Shown here: in pieces, positions 33,627 to 39,051 of the stretch | Layout of the letters: each line of letters begins with the position of its first letter | How positions within the stretch are numbered: the first letter of the stretch is position 1 | Notes under the pieces: model-generated | What the model saw: only the letters and a program-made list of their open reading frames with translations | Told to the model about the DNA's origin: nothing | Databases searched by the model: none | Made by a program: the position numbers and the translations under genes | Origin: Sphingomicrobium sp. | GTDB lineage: Bacteria > Pseudomonadota > Alphaproteobacteria > Sphingomonadales > Sphingomonadaceae | Length of the DNA: 64,000 nucleotides | Assembly (NCBI GenBank): GCA_037721775.1 | Contig: JBBJOG010000012.1 | Location: 1,635-65,634, forward strand | Direction: 5' to 3'

Positions 33627-33659
33627 GAAAGGCCGCCCGGTCGCTCGGACGGCCTTTCC
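33627..33659. terminator. Bidirectional hairpin terminator
   Basis: GAAAGGCCG...CGGCCTTTC. Confidence 0.7.
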
Positions 33660-33783
33660 ATTGTCGAGCCTGAAGCGGCCTGACGTCATTAAGCGCAAAC
33701 TCCAACGGAGGCTGCGCTCACCAGACGGACCGCGAACGGCAATTGACAATGAGACATCAGACCACCTCCTTTCAGCTGTTGAA
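33627..33783 (-). ncRNA. Candidate structured RNA / micro-ORF element copy A (ORF 33689-33757, MSHCQLPFAVRLVSAASVGVCA)
   Basis: TTCAACAGCTGAAAGGAGGTGGTCTG-ATGTCTCAT; AGCGCA...TGCGCT hairpin; terminator; paralog at 37781-37940. Confidence 0.55.
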
Positions 33784-33901
33784 CAGTGGAGCGAAGGTCC
33801 GGCGAAGCCCTGGCTGAGCATGTCGGCCGCAGCCTCGATGGCTGCATCGAGCTGGAGGTAAAACGGCCGCTTGAGCGAATCTACGCCCGTTGGCGCCGGG
33901 A

Positions 33902-35155
33902 TTAAGCTGGCTTTCGGGGCGGCGCGCCGTCGTTGGCGGTGATCCAGGCATCGACCACCGGCGCGATCTTCTCGCGCCACTTGCGGCCGTTGAAGATGCC
34001 GTAATGGCCGACGTCCTTGGCCATGAAATAGCTTTTCTTGCGCGGCGGCAATTTGGGCGCGAGGCCGAGCGCCGCCTTGGTCTGGCCAAGCCCGGAAATA
34101 TCGTCGCGCTCGCCCTCGATCGCCAGCAGCGCGGTGTCGCGGATCGCGCCCGGATCGACCTTGCGGCCGCGGTGGCTGAGCTTGCCCTTGGGCAGCAGGT
34201 GCCGCTTGAACACCGCATCGACGGTCTGCAAATAGAATTCGGCGGTCATGTCGGCGACCGAGCGATATTCGTCGTAAAAGCTTTTGGTCGAATCCGCGCT
34301 TTCCTCGTCGCCTTCGACCAGATGTCTGAACATCTCCCAGTGGCTGACCAGATGGCCGCCGAGGTTCATGGTCATGAATCCGGCAAGCTGCAGGAAGCCC
34401 GGGTAAACCTTGCGGCCGCTGCCCGGGTAATAAGCGGGCACGGTGGCGACGACATTATTCTCGAACCAGCCGAGCGGGCGTTCGGTAGCCAGCGTGTTGA
34501 CGGCGGTCGGCGCTTGGCGCGTATCGACCGGGCCGCCCATCATCGTCAGCGACTTGGGCCGCCACTTGTTTTGATCGGCGTTCATTAGCGCGGTCGCGGC
34601 CAGCGCCGGGACCGACGGCTGGCACACCGCCAGCAGATGCGGCCGCTCGCCGGTCTCCTCGCCGATCAGCTCCATGAACTCGATCAGATAATCGATGTAA
34701 TCGTCGAGATCGAAGCTGCCCTCACTGGTCGGCACCAGCTTGGCGTCGCGCCAGTCGGTGATGTAGACTTCGTGGCGCGGCAGCATCCGCTCGACGGTGC
34801 CGCGCAGGAGGGTCGCGAAGTGGCCCGACATCGGCGCGACGATCAGCAGCCGTGGCCCCTTGTCGACGCCTTCACGAACGAAGCGCTTCAACTGCCCGAA
34901 CGGCTTGCGAAGGACGATTTCCTCGCGGACCGCGACTGACTTCCCCGCCACTTTTGTCGAGGCAATGCCGAATTCCGGCTTGCCGCGCGGCGACGCTGCA
35001 TGTGCGAAGACGTTGAGGCTGGCGGCGATCAGCGGGCTCGACGAAGCATAAGCAAAGGGATTGGTCGGATTGTTGAGCCACCCGGCGCTAAAGCCCGCGA
35101 GCTTGCTCGCCCCGGCCAGGAATGAGCGTTGGACTTCATAGGCGTCGTAGAGCAT
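33902..35155 (-). CDS. phaZ: Intracellular polyhydroxyalkanoate depolymerase
   Basis: VAPMSGHFATLLR, YITDW, LAVCQP, EGERDDISG, VGHYGIFNG; start ATG 35155. Confidence 0.93.
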   Translation of the reverse strand: MLYDAYEVQRSFLAGASKLAGFSAGWLNNPTNPFAYASSSPLIAASLNVFAHAASPRGKPEFGIASTKVAGKSVAVREEIVLRKPFGQLKRFVREGVDKGPRLLIVAPMSGHFATLLRGTVERMLPRHEVYITDWRDAKLVPTSEGSFDLDDYIDYLIEFMELIGEETGERPHLLAVCQPSVPALAATALMNADQNKWRPKSLTMMGGPVDTRQAPTAVNTLATERPLGWFENNVVATVPAYYPGSGRKVYPGFLQLAGFMTMNLGGHLVSHWEMFRHLVEGDEESADSTKSFYDEYRSVADMTAEFYLQTVDAVFKRHLLPKGKLSHRGRKVDPGAIRDTALLAIEGERDDISGLGQTKAALGLAPKLPPRKKSYFMAKDVGHYGIFNGRKWREKIAPVVDAWITANDGAPPRKPA

Positions 35156-35294
35156 TCGACCTCGCTTCGTGGCTGTCAGTCGCTGTTCAAAACGGTTTGG
35201 GCGCCATTTGGTCCCCGCGCAAGGCTGATGCTGCACTGCAACAGGTGGCTTCCGGCGAATTGAGCGCAAGCTGCGGCGCTGCTAGGGCCGGGCC

Positions 35295-37073
35295 ATGGCG
35301 GGGATCCCGGACAAGGCGCGATCGAGCATCGGCAACCTCAAGCTCGTCTGGCGGGCGGCGGCAAGATATCCACAGCAAATCGCAGCCGCTTTGTTTTTCC
35401 TGTGCCTGTCGTCGGCGGCGACCCTGGCCATACCCTACGGCTTCAAGCGGGTGATCGACCGCGGCTTCGGCCAGGCCGGCGCCAGCGAAGCGGCCGTCGG
35501 CCACGCGTTCCAATATTTGCTAATGATCGTCGTCGTGCTGGCAGCCGCCACCGCGATGCGATTTTACTTCGTCTCGTGGCTGGGCGAGCGGACGGTTGCC
35601 GACCTTCGGGTTGCCGCGCAGAAAAATCTTCTCACTTTGCCGCCGCGCTTCTTCGAGGAGAACCGGCCGTCGGAAATCGCCTCGCGGCTGACCGCCGACA
35701 CCGCTATCCTCGAGCAAGTGATCGGGTCGAGCGTGTCGATCGCGCTTCGCAATCTCGCCACCGGCATCGGCGGGATCATTTACCTGTTCGCTTTGTCGCC
35801 CAAGCTCGCCGCGATGCTGGTCGTCGGAATCCCGTTCGTGTTCGGGCCGATCATCCTGTTCGGGCGGCGCATCAGAACGCTCAGCCGCTCGTCGCAGGAC
35901 CGAATCGCCGACGTCGGTTCGGCGGTGTCGGAGACGCTGGGCGCGATGAAGGTGGTGCAGGCGTTCGGGCAGGAGAGCCGCGAGCTCGGCCGCTTCGGCG
36001 CCGCGGTCGAGCGCGCCTTCGCCGTTGCCCGCCGCCGCTTCACCTTGCGCGCGGTCATGACCTTCATCGTCATCGCGTTGATCTTCAGCGCCATCGTCCT
36101 GATCCTGTGGGAAGGCGCCATCGACGTCGCGGCGGGGCGGATGACCGGCGGCGCGATCGCCGCTTTCGTCTTCACCGGGGTATTGGTCGGCGGAGCGTTC
36201 GGCGCGCTGACCGAAGTCTATGGCGATTTGCTGCGCGGCTCCGGCGCCGCCGGGCGGCTGTATGAGCTGATGGTTGCGCGTCCCGAGATCAAGGCGCCGG
36301 AAACCCCCGTCGCGCTGCCTTTGCCGGCGCGCGGCGCGCTGGCGTTCGAAGGCGTGACTTTCCTCTATCCGACGCGGCCCGACGAAATGGCGCTGCACGA
36401 ATTGTCGCTGACGATCGCGCCGGGCGAGACGGTCGCGGTGGTCGGCCCGTCGGGCGCCGGCAAGTCGACCCTGTTCCAGCTGGCGCTTCGCTTCTACGAC
36501 CCGCAGGAAGGCCGGGTGACTCTGGACGGCATTGACCTTCGCGACGCCGACCCCGCCGAGGTCCGCGAGCGAATCGCGGTCGTGCCGCAGGAAACGGTGA
36601 TCTTTGCCGCTTCGGCGCGCGACAATATCCGCTACGGGCGCTGGCAGGCGAGCGACGAGGAAATAGCCGACGCCGCACGGGCCGCCAACGCGCACAAGTT
36701 TTTGAGCCAGATGCCCGACGGCTACGACAGCTTCCTGGGCGAAGGCGGAGCCCGCCTGTCGGGCGGCCAGCGCCAGCGGATCGTCATCGCCCGGGCGCTG
36801 CTTCGCGACGCGCCGCTTTTATTGCTCGACGAGGCGACGTCGGCGCTCGACGCGCACAGCGAAAAACTGGTGCAGGAAGCGCTTGAGCGGCTGATCAAGA
36901 CGCGAACGACGATCGTCATCGCCCACCGGCTGGCAACCACCCGCGCGGCCGACCGGATCATCGTCATCGATAATGGGCGGATCGTCGAGCAAGGGACCCA
37001 CAAGTCCCTCAACGCCGCGGACGGGCTATACGCGAGCCTGGCGCGGCTTCAGTTCGCCGGCCAGGCTGCGTAA
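35295..37073 (+). CDS. ABC exporter, fused TMD-NBD (MsbA-like)
   Basis: 6-TM domain, GPSGAGKST, LSGGQRQR, LLLDEATSALD. Confidence 0.93.
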   Translation: MAGIPDKARSSIGNLKLVWRAAARYPQQIAAALFFLCLSSAATLAIPYGFKRVIDRGFGQAGASEAAVGHAFQYLLMIVVVLAAATAMRFYFVSWLGERTVADLRVAAQKNLLTLPPRFFEENRPSEIASRLTADTAILEQVIGSSVSIALRNLATGIGGIIYLFALSPKLAAMLVVGIPFVFGPIILFGRRIRTLSRSSQDRIADVGSAVSETLGAMKVVQAFGQESRELGRFGAAVERAFAVARRRFTLRAVMTFIVIALIFSAIVLILWEGAIDVAAGRMTGGAIAAFVFTGVLVGGAFGALTEVYGDLLRGSGAAGRLYELMVARPEIKAPETPVALPLPARGALAFEGVTFLYPTRPDEMALHELSLTIAPGETVAVVGPSGAGKSTLFQLALRFYDPQEGRVTLDGIDLRDADPAEVRERIAVVPQETVIFAASARDNIRYGRWQASDEEIADAARAANAHKFLSQMPDGYDSFLGEGGARLSGGQRQRIVIARALLRDAPLLLLDEATSALDAHSEKLVQEALERLIKTRTTIVIAHRLATTRAADRIIVIDNGRIVEQGTHKSLNAADGLYASLARLQFAGQAA

Positions 37074-37079
37074 AAAGGC

Positions 37080-37652
37080 TTAGCTCGGGATTGCGCCCGA
37101 GCCGCCGGAATCGCTCGAGCCGCCGCTGCGCGGGCGCGATGCCGTCGAGCGGCTGCGGGTCGATTTGCGAGCGGTGGTCTTGCGCTTGGTGGCGGTTTTC
37201 GCCGCGCCGCCGGTCTTGGCTGCGCTCGAACGCGATGTGGTGCTCTTGGCGCGGGCCGGCTTGGCCTTTGCGGTCGAGCGAGACGCTGTCGAGCGCGGCT
37301 TGGTTGCGCTGCTTCGCGATCCGCTGCTGGAGCTGTCGTCGTCCGACCATTTGCCGGACATCACGCGCTGCGCCGCATCGGCGACCGCTTCGGCGATCAG
37401 CGATCCCAGGCGCGTCGCGCTCGACATCATGCTGTTGGCCGCCGAGCTGGCGCTATCGGCAGCGTCCATTCCGGCGTCGCGGATTTTCTTGCGCGCGGAC
37501 GGGCTGGCGCTGATCGCCGCAGCCGCTGCCGCGAGGCCCGCTGCGAGCATTTCCTTGCTCATCGCCGCCTTGGCGATCTTGTCGACGGTGCTGTCGTTCG
37601 ATTTTGACTTCGATGCAGACTTCGATTTTGTTTTTCGACTGGATTTTGCCAT
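37080..37652 (-). CDS. Low-complexity basic (histone H1-like) protein
   Basis: K/S/R/T/A-rich termini, Ala-rich helical core; SD AGGGAGG before ATG 37652. Confidence 0.8.
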   Translation of the reverse strand: MAKSSRKTKSKSASKSKSNDSTVDKIAKAAMSKEMLAAGLAAAAAAISASPSARKKIRDAGMDAADSASSAANSMMSSATRLGSLIAEAVADAAQRVMSGKWSDDDSSSSGSRSSATKPRSTASRSTAKAKPARAKSTTSRSSAAKTGGAAKTATKRKTTARKSTRSRSTASRPRSGGSSDSGGSGAIPS

Positions 37653-37780
37653 GGCAAACCTCCCTGTTTCGGTCGCACCCATTAGACACACGAGCGCGGC
37701 AACAGTTCCGTTGCGGGCACGAAAAGGCCGCGGATTTGCGTCAGTTCGCCGGCTTGAAATTCAGTTGCGGGACAAGTCAA

Positions 37781-37809
37781 AGGGGATCGTCGCTTGGCGA
37801 CGATCCCCT
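37781..37809. terminator. Perfect 13-bp hairpin
   Basis: AGGGGATCGTCGC-TTG-GCGACGATCCCCT. Confidence 0.75.
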
Positions 37810-37940
37810 CGAACATGGTCAGCGGCCGGAAGGTGACCAGCCGTTCCGAAAAAGCGCTAGGCGCTCACCTCCCGAACGACATCCCCCGACCTCTGTGCTG
37901 AACCATGAGACATCGGATCACCTCCTTTCGCTGTGTTGAA
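37781..37940 (-). ncRNA. Candidate structured RNA / micro-ORF element copy B (ORF 37857-37913, MSHGSAQRSGDVVREVSA)
   Basis: TTCAACACAGCGAAAGGAGGTGATCCG-ATGTCTCAT; AGCGC-CTA-GCGCT hairpin; terminator. Confidence 0.55.
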
Positions 37941-38056
37941 GCTGGGGACGATCATGAATCGGGAACGGGTTTAGAACAAGACTTGTAATGCAAAAATCTT
38001 TGGGTAATTCTCGTTGACTTCGCGCGGCCGGCAAGCTTGCTACGGCGCCGGCCTTT

Positions 38057-38530
38057 TCAGCTCCTGCAATCCTCGATCACGCGGCTGGTTTCCGGCCAGG
38101 CGGGAACCGCGAGCAGCGGCGCGCCCACCGCCGATGTCGCGAACTTGCCGCGGCTCAGCGAGATTGCGTCTAGCAGCGGGTCAGTGATGGCGAGGTCGGC
38201 GGTCAGCACCCTCGTAACCTCGAACCGCGCGGGCACGCTGCGCGACAGCGAGCTGGTCCACACCGCCAACGTCGGGGTCGCCGCGGCAACGCCGGTGCGC
38301 ATGATCGAAACGGTGCGCGCGACGCGGTTGCAGCGGATCGAAAGCCGGGTGCCGCCGGCGTCGGCGAACGCCGCCTCGCTGCCGCCGGCATAGGACCGGT
38401 ACGACCAGTTGCCCGCCACTGCGGTCACGCTGTCGACGCTGAAGGCGGGAGCGGGCGCAATTTGCGCCGCCGACGCAATCGGGCAGCACAGCGCGGCAAG
38501 CGTCGCCAGGGCAATTGGAAAGCTGTTCAT
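38057..38530 (-). CDS. Exported hypothetical protein
   Basis: Signal peptide; overlaps phaR stop (coupled). Confidence 0.75.
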   Translation of the reverse strand: MNSFPIALATLAALCCPIASAAQIAPAPAFSVDSVTAVAGNWSYRSYAGGSEAAFADAGGTRLSIRCNRVARTVSIMRTGVAAATPTLAVWTSSLSRSVPARFEVTRVLTADLAITDPLLDAISLSRGKFATSAVGAPLLAVPAWPETSRVIEDCRS

Positions 38531-39051
38531 TTGTTTAAGCGATCAACCTTTGCCTGGAGCGCGGCAAGCTCCGCGCGCAATTGCTCGACCTCGTCCGGCG
38601 CCGGTGCTTCCGCCGGCCCCTTCGTCGCGCCAGGCGTAAACCCCCGGCTCGCATCCTCGAACGCCGCCATGTTGCGCTTGGCGATGTCGGCGAACGCATT
38701 GCCGCCGAACGCATCGCCGATCGCCTGCTGGTTGCGCTTGAACGCGTCCATCGCCGCCTCCAGATATTGCGGCACGACGCCCTGCATCGAATTGCCGTAC
38801 AGCCCGATCAGCTGCTTGAGGAAATTGACCGGCAGCATGGTCGATCCGCGCGCTTCCTCGTCGACGATGATCTGGGTCAGCACGTGGCGGGTGATGTCTT
38901 CGCCGCTCTTGGCGTCGACGACTTCGAACTCGCGCCCCTCGCGGACCAGCTCGGCAAGCCGGTCGAGGGTGATGTAAGAAGAGCTTTCGGTGTCATAAAG
39001 CCGCCGGTTGGCGTATTTCTTGATCGTCACCTTGCCCGAGGTTTTGGCCAT
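38527..39051 (-). CDS. phaR: PHA synthesis repressor PhaR
   Basis: IKKYANRRLYDTESSSYITL, GEDITRHVLTQII. Confidence 0.95.
   Translation of the reverse strand: MAKTSGKVTIKKYANRRLYDTESSSYITLDRLAELVREGREFEVVDAKSGEDITRHVLTQIIVDEEARGSTMLPVNFLKQLIGLYGNSMQGVVPQYLEAAMDAFKRNQQAIGDAFGGNAFADIAKRNMAAFEDASRGFTPGATKGPAEAPAPDEVEQLRAELAALQAKVDRLNK

What the first reader, a model, noticed from the sequence alone, without database searches (positions are those of the whole stretch)
33627..37940. Pair of paralogous unannotated RNA/micro-ORF elements with a 16S-complementary ribosome-binding site
Seen: two minus-strand loci 4.2 kb apart share TTCAAC(A)CAGC-GAAAGGAGGTGRTCYG-ATGTCTCAT, then GGTGAGCGC opening a hairpin of different length (AGCGCA-..CTCC-GTT-GGAG..-TGCGCT versus AGCGC-CTA-GCGCT), then a strong terminator. 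Copy B contains GAAAGGAGGTGATCC, a 15-nt complement of the usual 16S rRNA 3' end. Peptides are MSHCQLPFAVRLVSAASVGVCA and MSHGSAQRSGDVVREVSA (shared MSH and VRxVSA). A G5 run at 37883-37887 makes the copy B frame indel-sensitive (G4 would give MSHGSAQRSGMSFGR). Both lie in the PHA neighbourhood. Inference: a family of structured small RNAs or micropeptide mRNAs (ribosome sponge, type I toxin-like or dual-function RNA).
Basis: partly seen in the sequence, partly recalled or inferred. Interest (0 to 1): 0.75.

Follow-up and report, generated by a model that had tools for sequence, protein, structure and literature searches.

The report
Two ribosome-docking small mRNAs (CC2171/rre)
The two look-alike loci are real, but they belong to a known and still unexplained class of alphaproteobacterial mini-mRNAs (Rfam CC2171, the "rre" type) whose ribosome-binding site matches nearly the whole free tail of 16S rRNA. 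One copy is the standard form; the other is a Sphingomonadaceae-wide variant that falls below the Rfam threshold.

Summary
Two minus-strand elements 4,156 bases apart share GAAAGGAGGTGRTCYGATGTCTCAT (0 of 100 shuffles give a match). Each folds much better than shuffles (z about -4.6) and ends in a terminator hairpin.

They are not a new family.
- Copy A (33629-33781) passes the gathering score of Rfam RF01867 (CC2171): 76.2 bits against 75.
- Copy B (37782-37937) matches the full model at 51.3 bits (E 8e-9).
- This is the rre kind of small mRNA with an extended Shine-Dalgarno (Hahn et al., PMC5711450). rreB binds 30S strongly and is translated weakly. Its function is unknown.

What 164 homologues add:
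- Copy B represents a Sphingomonadales variant. An exact 26-mer, mostly of the B form, occurs in 241 of 301 Sphingomonadaceae genomes. Every B element scored stays below the Rfam threshold.
- The short frame is kept in length (18 or about 24 codons) and all three stop codons interchange. The peptide sequence is not conserved, so translation matters more than the peptide.
- An internal anti-SD-like stretch can cover the ribosome-binding site. The GAAA bases at its 5' end are predicted mostly unpaired.

Most likely both RNAs dock on 30S subunits. The PHA setting is local.

The parts
33629..33781 (-). Copy A: whole RNA as matched by Rfam RF01867 (CC2171), canonical type
   Evidence: 76.2 bits against a gathering score of 75, E 8e-14, model positions 1-159. 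MFE -76.7 kcal/mol, z -4.67, 0 of 200 shuffles as good.
33757..33773 (-). Copy A extended SD region GAAAGGAGGUGGUCUGA. The last A is the A of the AUG.
   Evidence: 11 contiguous Watson-Crick pairs plus wobbles to the 16S tail of congeners. Duplex energy -26.5 kcal/mol against -9.2 for AGGAGG.
33689..33757 (-). Copy A micro-ORF: 22 codons plus TAA (MSHCQLPFAVRLVSAASVGVCA)
   Evidence: In the canonical set the frame-0 ORF has a median of 24 codons and 95% lie within 3 codons of it.
33745..33751 (-). Copy A P1 5' strand, CAUUGUC
   Evidence: Pairs with GACAAUG. 58 of 104 homologues have exactly this pair and variants keep pairing. This helix is in the Rfam consensus structure.
33659..33665 (-). 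Copy A P1 3' strand, GACAAUG
33672..33687 (-). Copy A mask, GACGUCAGGCCGCUUC, just after the stop codon. Predicted to pair with the SD and the AUG.
   Evidence: 16-bp helix in the MFE and in the centroid structure. Duplex -19.9 kcal/mol, z -2.9. The same site occurs in the orthologues L003, L004 and L153.
33692..33718 (-). Copy A internal hairpin AGCGCAGCCUCC-GUU-GGAGUUUGCGCU, inside the ORF; it contains CCUCC
33627..33658 (-). Copy A terminator hairpin: 13-bp stem, then GCATTCTTGT
37782..37937 (-). Copy B: whole RNA, Sphingomonadales-specific variant of the family
   Evidence: RF01867 at 51.3 bits (below the gathering score of 75), E 8e-9, model positions 1-159. MFE -78.6 kcal/mol, z -4.58.
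37913..37929 (-). Copy B extended SD region GAAAGGAGGUGAUCCGA
   Evidence: 15 Watson-Crick pairs plus one G-U to CUGGAUCACCUCCUUUC. Duplex -29.9 kcal/mol. The 26-mer pattern that includes it matches exactly in 241 of 301 Sphingomonadaceae genomes, mostly as this B form.
37857..37913 (-). Copy B micro-ORF: 18 codons plus TAG (MSHGSAQRSGDVVREVSA)
   Evidence: B-type ORFs run 15-20 codons and 43 of 60 have exactly 18. Among the 18-codon ORFs the stops are TAA 22, TGA 11, TAG 6.
37897..37907 (-). Copy B P1 5' strand, CAUGGU-U-CAGC
   Evidence: RNAalifold consensus of 47 B-type sequences. CAUGGUU with GACCAUG in 53 of 60.
37814..37823 (-). Copy B P1 3' strand, GCUGACCAUG
37828..37838 (-). Copy B mask, GGUCACCUUCC, an imperfect copy of the 16S tail. 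Predicted to pair with GGAGGUGAUC.
   Evidence: MFE and centroid, duplexfold. In B-type RNAs a 7-mer able to pair fully with GGAGGUG lies just 5' of GCUGACC in 50%, against 4% of control windows.
37853..37865 (-). Copy B small hairpin AGCGC-CUA-GCGCU, holding the stop codon
37782..37808 (-). Copy B terminator hairpin GGGGAUCGUCGCC-AAG-CGACGAUCCCC, then UUUGACUUG
   Evidence: The simple terminator scan did not list it because the T run is short.
37951..37980 (-). Copy B putative own promoter: CTTGTTC, 17-nt spacer, CATGAT
   Evidence: Same boxes at the same distance in the congeneric B-type loci shown: CTTGyr, about 17 nt, CATCTT. This is inference; no transcript data.

Best explanation
Both loci are genes for stand-alone structured small mRNAs of about 155-170 nt, of the CC2171/rre class. 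Copy A is the orthologue of the canonical alphaproteobacterial CC2171 RNA. Copy B is a paralogous variant found across Sphingomonadales.

Each RNA has, in order:
- a short 5' leader;
- a ribosome-binding site extended to 15-17 bases of complementarity with the free 3' tail of 16S rRNA;
- an AUG followed by invariant UCU CAU;
- a reading frame of fixed length (22 and 18 codons);
- an internal CU-rich stretch that resembles the 16S tail and can cover the ribosome-binding site;
- a long-range helix (P1) that closes the body of the RNA;
- an intrinsic terminator.

Proposed mechanism:
1. The four 5' bases GAAA of the complementary region, predicted mostly unpaired, serve as a toehold for the 16S tail.
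2. The tail displaces the internal mask, and the RNA docks very tightly on the 30S subunit (about -26 to -30 kcal/mol, against about -9 for an ordinary SD).
3. Initiation and clearance are then poor, so the RNA acts mainly as a ribosome-bound RNA whose own fate is decided on the ribosome.
4. The frame is translated at least sometimes, and where the ribosome stops is under selection. The peptide itself probably is not.

Shown here: family membership, the architecture, conservation of ORF length and stop, and support for P1 and for the mask helix.
Taken from the literature on rreB: 30S binding, weak translation, and stability that depends on the start codon.
Inferred: that these two copies behave the same way, the toehold and strand-displacement order, and what the cell gains from it.
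For: Identity:
- RF01867 matches both copies over the whole model.
- The family is in 62 of 401 alphaproteobacterial genomes. The B-type 26-mer pattern is in 241 of 301 Sphingomonadaceae genomes, 99 of 112 genera.

16S complementarity:
- Congeneric 16S ends read CUGGAUCACCUCCUUUC.
- Duplex energies are -26.5 (copy A), -29.9 (copy B) and -32.4 (consensus), against -9.2 kcal/mol for AGGAGG.

The frame is used:
- Frame-0 ORF length lies within 3 codons of the median in 95% of canonical and 100% of B-type RNAs. The other frames give 8-37%.
- TAA, TAG and TGA interchange at the stop while the neighbouring codons are almost random.
- AUG and GUG interchange at the start.
- GC3 is 0.80 against 0.63 and 0.62 in canonical ORFs, with no phase bias after the stop.

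The peptide is not the main target of selection:
- Variability is flat across codon positions.
- The rare codons UCU CAU UGU/GGU are invariant.
- Compensatory RNA changes alter residues: Cys to Gly between types, and Trp to Gly in L134 while pairing is kept.

Structure:
- P1 covaries between the types: CAUUGUC/GACAAUG against CAUGGUU/GACCAUG.
- The SD-mask helix is 85.9% paired against 30-49% for slid partners, with 3 pairs changed on both sides.
- Both window copies mask the SD in their MFE and leave GAAA(G) unpaired.
- Mean unpaired probability is 0.65-0.71 for the toehold and 0.21-0.37 for the SD core.

Biochemistry of the class:
- rreB co-sediments with 30S, its 5' extension is needed for that, translation is weak, and replacing the start codon stabilises the RNA (PMC5711450).
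- CC2171 was seen on Northern blots in Methylorubrum.
Against: - No transcript, 30S-binding or translation data exist for these copies or for any Sphingomonadales member.
- rreB and rreR are not sequence homologues of CC2171, so carrying their biochemistry over is an analogy.
- Neither copy reaches the 16-17 perfect matches of rreB. Copy B has 15 plus a wobble; copy A has 11 plus wobbles.
- Copy A lacks the CTTGAA/CCATCT promoter boxes of its orthologues, so it may be poorly expressed or made by read-through from phaZ.
- The mask helix rests on few independent compensatory events, because the SD hardly varies.
- Fold predictions differ between the subfamilies. P1 is in the MFE of 81% of canonical RNAs but only 25% of B-type RNAs.
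- P1 and the mask helix cross each other. They could coexist as a pseudoknot, which the tools used cannot evaluate.
Confidence: 0.7

Rival explanations
1. The RNAs are ordinary mRNAs for functional micropeptides of 22 and 18 residues, and the strong ribosome-binding site simply maximises their output.
For: - Start, frame length and stop are conserved.
- GC3 is raised in canonical ORFs.
- The N-terminus MSH(C/G) is almost invariant.
- Hahn et al. consider RreB and RreR to be small proteins conserved within their clades.
Against: - Beyond residue 4-6 the peptides are not conserved even within the family.
- Variability is equal at all three codon positions.
- The invariant N-terminal codons are rare codons with no synonymous change, which points to selection on the nucleotides.
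- Changes that keep RNA pairing change the residue.
- Very long SDs lowered translation in the rreB reporters.
- The synthetic RreB and RreR peptides were unstructured.
- None of four peptides looked up, including copy A's, is called as a protein in a collection of about 15 billion sequences.
Confidence: 0.12
2. They are trans-acting base-pairing small RNAs, or sponges. Their exposed GGAGG-rich 5' end binds CU-rich partners other than 16S rRNA, for example small RNAs with anti-SD-like loops, and the ORF is incidental.
For: - The 5' region is the best conserved part and is partly single-stranded.
- Further GGAGG-like motifs lie inside the RNA.
- Small RNAs with CCUCC loops are known in Alphaproteobacteria (from memory, not tested here).
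Against: - Complementarity spans exactly the free 16S tail, 15-17 bases, and stops where 16S helix 45 begins.
- The conserved start, frame length and interchangeable stops are unexplained by this reading.
- rreB physically associates with 30S.
Confidence: 0.1
3. They are cis-regulatory pieces of the neighbouring genes: leader or attenuator of the downstream gene, or 3' UTR of the upstream gene, controlling PHA metabolism.
For: - Copy B lies between a conserved 157-aa gene and a 203-aa gene, all on one strand. Copy A follows phaZ.
- The 157-aa gene sits directly upstream of the B-type RNA in 51 of 60 loci.
- Copy A has no recognisable promoter of its own.
Against: - Each element ends in its own terminator.
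- B-type and canonical members show -35 and -10 boxes at a fixed distance.
- The downstream gene is conserved only within the genus, and PhaR and the ABC transporter likewise.
- Genomic context is not conserved across the class.
Confidence: 0.05
4. They are type I toxin-like loci encoding membrane-damaging peptides held in check by RNA structure.
For: A small ORF, a sequestered ribosome-binding site and a highly structured stable RNA are also features of type I toxin mRNAs.
Against: - The peptides have 15-27 residues, are polar or basic in the B type, and lack a hydrophobic stretch of membrane-spanning length.
- No antisense RNA gene is evident.
- There is a single copy in nearly every genome of a whole bacterial family, at a syntenic site.
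- rreB constructs expected to overproduce the peptide did not affect growth.
Confidence: 0.02

Closest known systems
Rfam RF01867, 'Caulobacter sRNA CC2171'. By my recollection it comes from the Caulobacter crescentus tiling-array sRNA screen of Landt et al. 2008. Northern-validated in Methylorubrum extorquens (bioRxiv 10.1101/2022.01.24.477521); predicted in Mesorhizobium huakuii (PMC5596092).
   Same: Copy A matches the full model above the curated threshold. Copy B matches the full model with E 8e-9. Shared features: 5' CAACA..GAAAGGAGGUGAUCC, start codon, UCUCAU, the P1 helix and the terminator.
   Different: - Rfam treats the family as a non-coding sRNA and does not draw the SD-mask pairing or the ORF.
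- Copy B and all B-type relatives scored reach only 30-57 bits, below the gathering score of 75.
- In the B type P1 has a different sequence (CAUGGUUCAGC/GCUGACCAUG), the ORF has 18 codons rather than about 24, and the mask lies after the ORF rather than inside it.
rreB (Bradyrhizobiaceae) and rreR (Rhodobacterales) small mRNAs with a 17-nt extended Shine-Dalgarno. Hahn et al., RNA Biol 14:1353, PMC5711450.
   Same: - Stand-alone RNA of about 165 nt with its own promoter and terminator.
- Ribosome-binding region complementary to the whole free 16S tail.
- sORF of 14-18 codons.
- Only the first few bases of the complementary region are predicted single-stranded.
[quoted passage not shown]
   Different: - No sequence homology of RNA or peptide to rreB or rreR.
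- The start is AUG, not GUG, so complementarity stops before the start codon (15-16 rather than 17).
- Sphingomonadales were not among the orders listed.
- No biochemistry exists for this lineage.
SD-sequestering translational switches (RNA thermometers such as ROSE and fourU; standby-site type I toxin mRNAs). From general knowledge.
   Same: An internal CU-rich sequence pairs with the SD and the start codon.
   Different: Those elements control a downstream protein gene and use ordinary 4-6-nt SDs. Here the whole transcript is the element, and the SD is three times longer.

Membership tests
Rfam RF01867 (CC2171) | Covariance-model score at or above the curated gathering score of 75 bits | tested here: met
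   Copy A scores 76.2 bits. Copy B scores 51.3 bits, E 8e-9, with full-length model match. It is below the threshold but clearly homologous.
Rfam RF01867 (CC2171) | Long-range helix P1 (CAUuGuC with GaCaAUG) enclosing the body, followed by a terminator hairpin | tested here: met
   Copy A: CAUUGUC/GACAAUG. Copy B: CAUGGUU/GACCAUG, a compensatory change. Terminators.
Rfam RF01867 (CC2171) | Expressed as a discrete small RNA | not testable with these tools
Expression is shown only for Caulobacter and Methylorubrum members.
rre small mRNAs (Hahn et al.) | At least 16 nt of complementarity to the 16S rRNA 3' end directly upstream of a sORF | tested here: inconclusive
   Copy B has 15 Watson-Crick pairs plus one G-U. 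Copy A has 11 Watson-Crick pairs, then G-U, U-A, C-G, U-G, G-U. The comparison is with congeneric 16S tails, because the own assembly lacks the 16S end. The canonical relatives have the full 17.
rre small mRNAs (Hahn et al.) | Short conserved sORF starting at the end of the complementary region | tested here: met
   22 and 18 codons. The length is conserved in 164 homologues and the three stop codons interchange. The start is AUG, not GUG.
rre small mRNAs (Hahn et al.) | Only the 5' few bases of the complementary region are single-stranded (seed); the rest lies in a conserved stem | tested here: met
   In the MFE and centroid of both copies the GAAA(G) bases are unpaired and the SD is paired. 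Across the families the toehold has unpaired probability 0.65-0.71 and the core 0.21-0.37. These are predictions only.
rre small mRNAs (Hahn et al.) | Strong association with 30S subunits, weak translation, and stability dependent on the start codon | not testable with these tools
   Needs fractionation, reporter fusions and half-life measurements.
Type I toxin-antitoxin | Hydrophobic membrane peptide plus an antisense RNA antitoxin | tested here: not met
   The peptides are polar or basic or only weakly hydrophobic, with 15-27 residues. No second small-RNA family matched the locus in the Rfam scan.

The most novel reading that the evidence does not exclude
The CC2171/rre RNAs may be ribosome-directed riboregulators with two folds rather than protein genes. 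In this reading:
1. The free GAAA toehold lets the 16S tail strip off an internal copy of itself.
2. In the B type this releases the strand that completes helix P1. Predicted P1 formation rises from 25% to 95% when the SD region is held open, against 44% for a control stretch.
3. P1 locks the first codons, leaving a 30S subunit tethered but unable to initiate freely.
4. The fixed-length frame acts as a ruler that sets where an occasional translating ribosome stops.

The Sphingomonadaceae B form would be a distinct, near-universal lineage of this device. The exact 26-mer occurs in 99 of 112 genera, and a block of about 44 nt is nearly invariant in 47 aligned B sequences.
Probability: 0.25. Interest if true: 0.7.

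Novelty: new member of a known kind. Interest (0 to 1): 0.35.

Why it matters
The class itself is an open puzzle. It is an RNA conserved across Alphaproteobacteria that pairs with the entire free tail of 16S rRNA, binds 30S, is barely translated and has no known role.

This case adds three things:
- The class extends to Sphingomonadales, where a sub-threshold variant is present in about 80% of genomes sampled and so goes unlabelled under Rfam's gathering threshold.
- One genome carries both forms side by side, which gives a natural pair for comparison.
- Comparative evidence shows that selection acts on the RNA sequence and on the position of the stop, not on the peptide.

That evidence narrows the experiments worth doing. 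It does not reveal the function and has no demonstrated link to PHA metabolism.

Tried and rejected
- The genome's own 16S 3' end: absent from the assembly. Congeners were used instead.
- Exact look-up of four micropeptides, including copy A's, among about 15 billion proteins: none on record. The 18-residue peptide of copy B is too short for that tool.
- Pfam and NCBIfam for the flanking 157-aa and 203-aa proteins: no family.
- Literature search for the exact RNA motifs, and for Sphingomonas together with extended SD: nothing. No functional follow-up of rreB was found in the library.
- E. coli-type promoter scan: no hit in the region. Promoter boxes were inferred from conservation instead.
- PHA link: rejected as a general feature. 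Only 9 of 80 loci syntenic for the ABC transporter carry an element, and PhaR adjacency is limited to the genus plus one Sphingomonas (S. rhizophila, L207).
- 'VRxVSA' and the G5 run as meaningful features: rejected, because relatives do not keep them.
- Strict mutual exclusion of P1 and the mask helix: not claimed. The two helices cross and could form a pseudoknot.
Full report
**1. Observation**

Their 25-mers begin 4,156 bases apart.
- Copy A reads GAAAGGAGGTGGTCTGATGTCTCAT at 33749-33773.
- Copy B reads GAAAGGAGGTGATCCGATGTCTCAT at 37905-37929.
- This pattern, allowing up to two mismatches, occurs exactly twice in the window and in none of 100 dinucleotide shuffles.
- The ORFs (A 33689-33757, 22 codons; B 37857-37913, 18 codons), the internal hairpins and the terminal hairpins are as described.
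- As RNA each copy folds far better than shuffles: A -76.7 kcal/mol, z -4.67; B -78.6 kcal/mol, z -4.58; 0 of 200 shuffles as good in each case.

**2. Identity**

An Rfam scan settles what they are.
- Copy A matches RF01867, 'Caulobacter sRNA CC2171', over the whole model at 76.2 bits (gathering score 75).
- Copy B matches the whole model at 51.3 bits, E 8e-9.
- The Rfam consensus already contains GAAAGGAGGUGAUCCAGUGUCUCAU, a long-range helix CAUuGuC/GaCaAUG and a terminator.
- CC2171 has been seen on Northern blots in Methylorubrum extorquens and predicted in Mesorhizobium. No condition or function is known.
- Earlier notes of this scan pointed to Hahn et al. (PMC5711450), which I read. rreB of Bradyrhizobiaceae is a 165-nt mRNA with a 17-nt complement of the 16S 3' end before a 14-codon GUG ORF.
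  - It co-sediments with 30S and is translated weakly.
  - It is stabilised when the start codon is replaced.
  - Overexpression gave no growth effect.

**3. Organism and 16S tail**

The closest relatives of a neighbouring gene are Sphingomicrobium MAGs. The assembly has 2.15 Mb in 32 contigs and lacks the 16S 3' end. Three congeners end their 16S with CUGCGGCUGGAUCACCUCCUUUC. Against that tail:
- copy B gives 15 Watson-Crick pairs plus one G-U (-29.9 kcal/mol);
- copy A gives 11 Watson-Crick pairs plus wobbles (-26.5);
- the class consensus gives 17 (-32.4);
- a plain AGGAGG gives -9.2.

**4. Two subfamilies**

I collected 164 distinct homologues.
- The canonical form starts MSHC, mostly from GUG, with about 24 codons. 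It occurs across Alphaproteobacteria: 62 of 401 genomes, 48 of 308 genera, nearly always one copy. Copy A belongs here.
- Copy B represents a second form that starts MSHGSA from AUG, with 18 codons. Among named records it was found only in Sphingomonadales.
- An exact 26-mer pattern occurs in 241 of 301 Sphingomonadaceae genomes and 99 of 112 genera. The matches are overwhelmingly B-type and usually single; about 13 genomes have two or more.
- In 47 aligned B sequences the block CGAAAGGAGGTGATCCGATGTCTCATGGTTCAGCAnnGAGGTCGG and the block GCTGACCATG are invariant or nearly so.
- B-type elements score 30-57 bits in Rfam, always below the threshold, so annotation that applies the gathering score would leave them unlabelled.
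- Within the genus 22 of 24 genomes have a family match. Every one read is a B element, except a weak 26-bit hit in G023. Only three genomes, counting the window's own, also have the A form.
- The A-ABC transporter-B arrangement recurs in two other Sphingomicrobium genomes.

**5. Is the frame used?**

Several signs say yes.
- Frame-0 ORF length has a median of 24 codons, with 95% within 3 codons, in the canonical set. In the B set it is 18 codons, with 100% within 3. The other two frames give 8-37%.
- The stop is TAA, TGA or TAG at the same codon (B: 22/11/6), next to codons with almost maximal entropy.
- The start alternates between AUG and GUG.
- The SD-mask site keeps its phase relative to the stop in 67 of 82 cases.
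- GC3 is 0.80 against 0.63 and 0.62 in canonical ORFs, and there is no phase bias after the stop.

The peptide, however, is not what is conserved.
- Entropy is flat across codon positions (B 1.15/1.19/0.86; canonical 1.46/1.46/1.32).
- Codons 2-4 are invariant rare codons with no synonymous change.
- RNA-preserving changes alter residues: Cys to Gly between the types, and Trp to Gly in L134.
- None of four peptides looked up, including copy A's, is in a collection of about 15 billion proteins.

I conclude that translation to a fixed point is selected, and that the peptide is largely free to vary.

**6. RNA architecture**

- P1 is kept with compensation between the types: CAUUGUC/GACAAUG against CAUGGUU/GACCAUG. 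In the B type it extends to CAUGGU-U-CAGC/GCUGACCAUG plus GGUCGG/CCGGCC.
- In the canonical set a stretch inside the ORF, CCUGGAUC-GUC-GCCUCC, mimics the 16S tail and pairs with the SD region.
  - 85.9% of cells pair, against 30-49% for slid partners.
  - Three pairs show changes on both sides, and 0 of 500 shuffles reach the observed values.
  - Examples of the compensation are CCGG/CCGG, CUCG/CGAG and CCCG/CGGG.
- In the window the mask of copy A lies just after the stop (GACGUCAGGCCGCUUC, 33672-33687) and recurs in its orthologues.
- The mask of copy B is GGUCACCUUCC (37828-37838).
- In B-type RNAs a 7-mer fully able to pair with GGAGGUG lies next to P1's 3' strand in 50%, against 4% of control windows.
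- In both MFE structures the SD is paired and GAAA(G) is free. Across the sets the toehold is unpaired with probability 0.65-0.71 and the SD core with 0.21-0.37.
- Opening the SD costs 5-7 kcal/mol, far less than the gain from pairing with 16S.
- Holding the SD open raises predicted P1 formation in the B set from 25% to 95% (control stretch 44%). In the canonical set P1 is already in 81% of MFEs.
- P1 and the mask helix cross, so they are either alternatives or a pseudoknot. This was not resolved.

**7. Context**

- The flanking genes are PHB depolymerase (33902-35269, -), an ABC transporter (35295-37073, +), a 203-aa ORF, a secreted 157-aa ORF, PhaR (38527-39051, -) and a thiolase.
- Only 9 of 80 loci syntenic for the transporter carry an element.
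- PhaR and the 203-aa gene are neighbours only within the genus, plus one Sphingomonas (S. rhizophila, L207).
- The exception is the 157-aa gene, which lies directly upstream of the B element on the same strand in 51 of 60 loci. No family could be assigned to it.
- B-type loci share CTTGyr, about 17 nt, then CATCTT. Copy B has CTTGTTC-N17-CATGAT.
- Orthologues of copy A have CTTGAA-N17-CCATCT, but the window's copy A does not.

**8. Verdict**

The elements belong to a catalogued family and a described class.
- The most likely mechanism is docking on the 30S subunit through the extended SD, gated by an internal mask, with inefficient translation of a ruler-like ORF.
- The steps beyond architecture are inferred from rreB. 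Rivals are scored in their own sections.
- Novelty is that of new members, one of them representing a lineage-wide variant that falls below the Rfam threshold. Interest is modest.

Noticed in passing
window 38057-38530 (-): A 157-aa protein with a signal peptide and no Pfam or NCBIfam family lies directly upstream of the B-type RNA, on the same strand, in 51 of 60 Sphingomonadales loci. It is the only conserved neighbour of the element.
   Followed up: partly
window 33782-33901 (-): Copy A lacks the CTTGAA (-35) and CCATCT (-10) boxes that its orthologues carry at fixed distance. It sits 120 nt after the phaZ stop, so it may be weakly expressed or made by read-through.
   Followed up: partly
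L188:3846 (+) and L209:1323 (+), Azospirillum MAGs: The same extended SD plus ATG TCT CAT GG opens a 59-60-codon ORF with a signal-peptide-like N-terminus (MSHGASPVVAALFGLATLLTAG...) instead of a micro-ORF. Hahn et al. note that the Azospirillum rre gene is plasmid-borne and starts with ATG.
   Followed up: no
whole genome G000: The assembly (32 contigs, 98% complete) has no 16S rRNA 3' end. The only match to GGATCACCTCCTTTC is the complement of copy B.
   Followed up: yes
L145 (record titled MAG: Bordetella parapertussis): A canonical alphaproteobacterial CC2171-type element sits on a contig labelled as a betaproteobacterial MAG. Mislabelling or mis-binning is likely.
   Followed up: no
genus-level genomes G004 and G022: Two congeneric genomes, one of them 100% complete in 3 contigs, gave no RF01867 match at E <= 0.001 under the stricter filters. 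The B element may have been lost or may be too divergent there.
   Followed up: no
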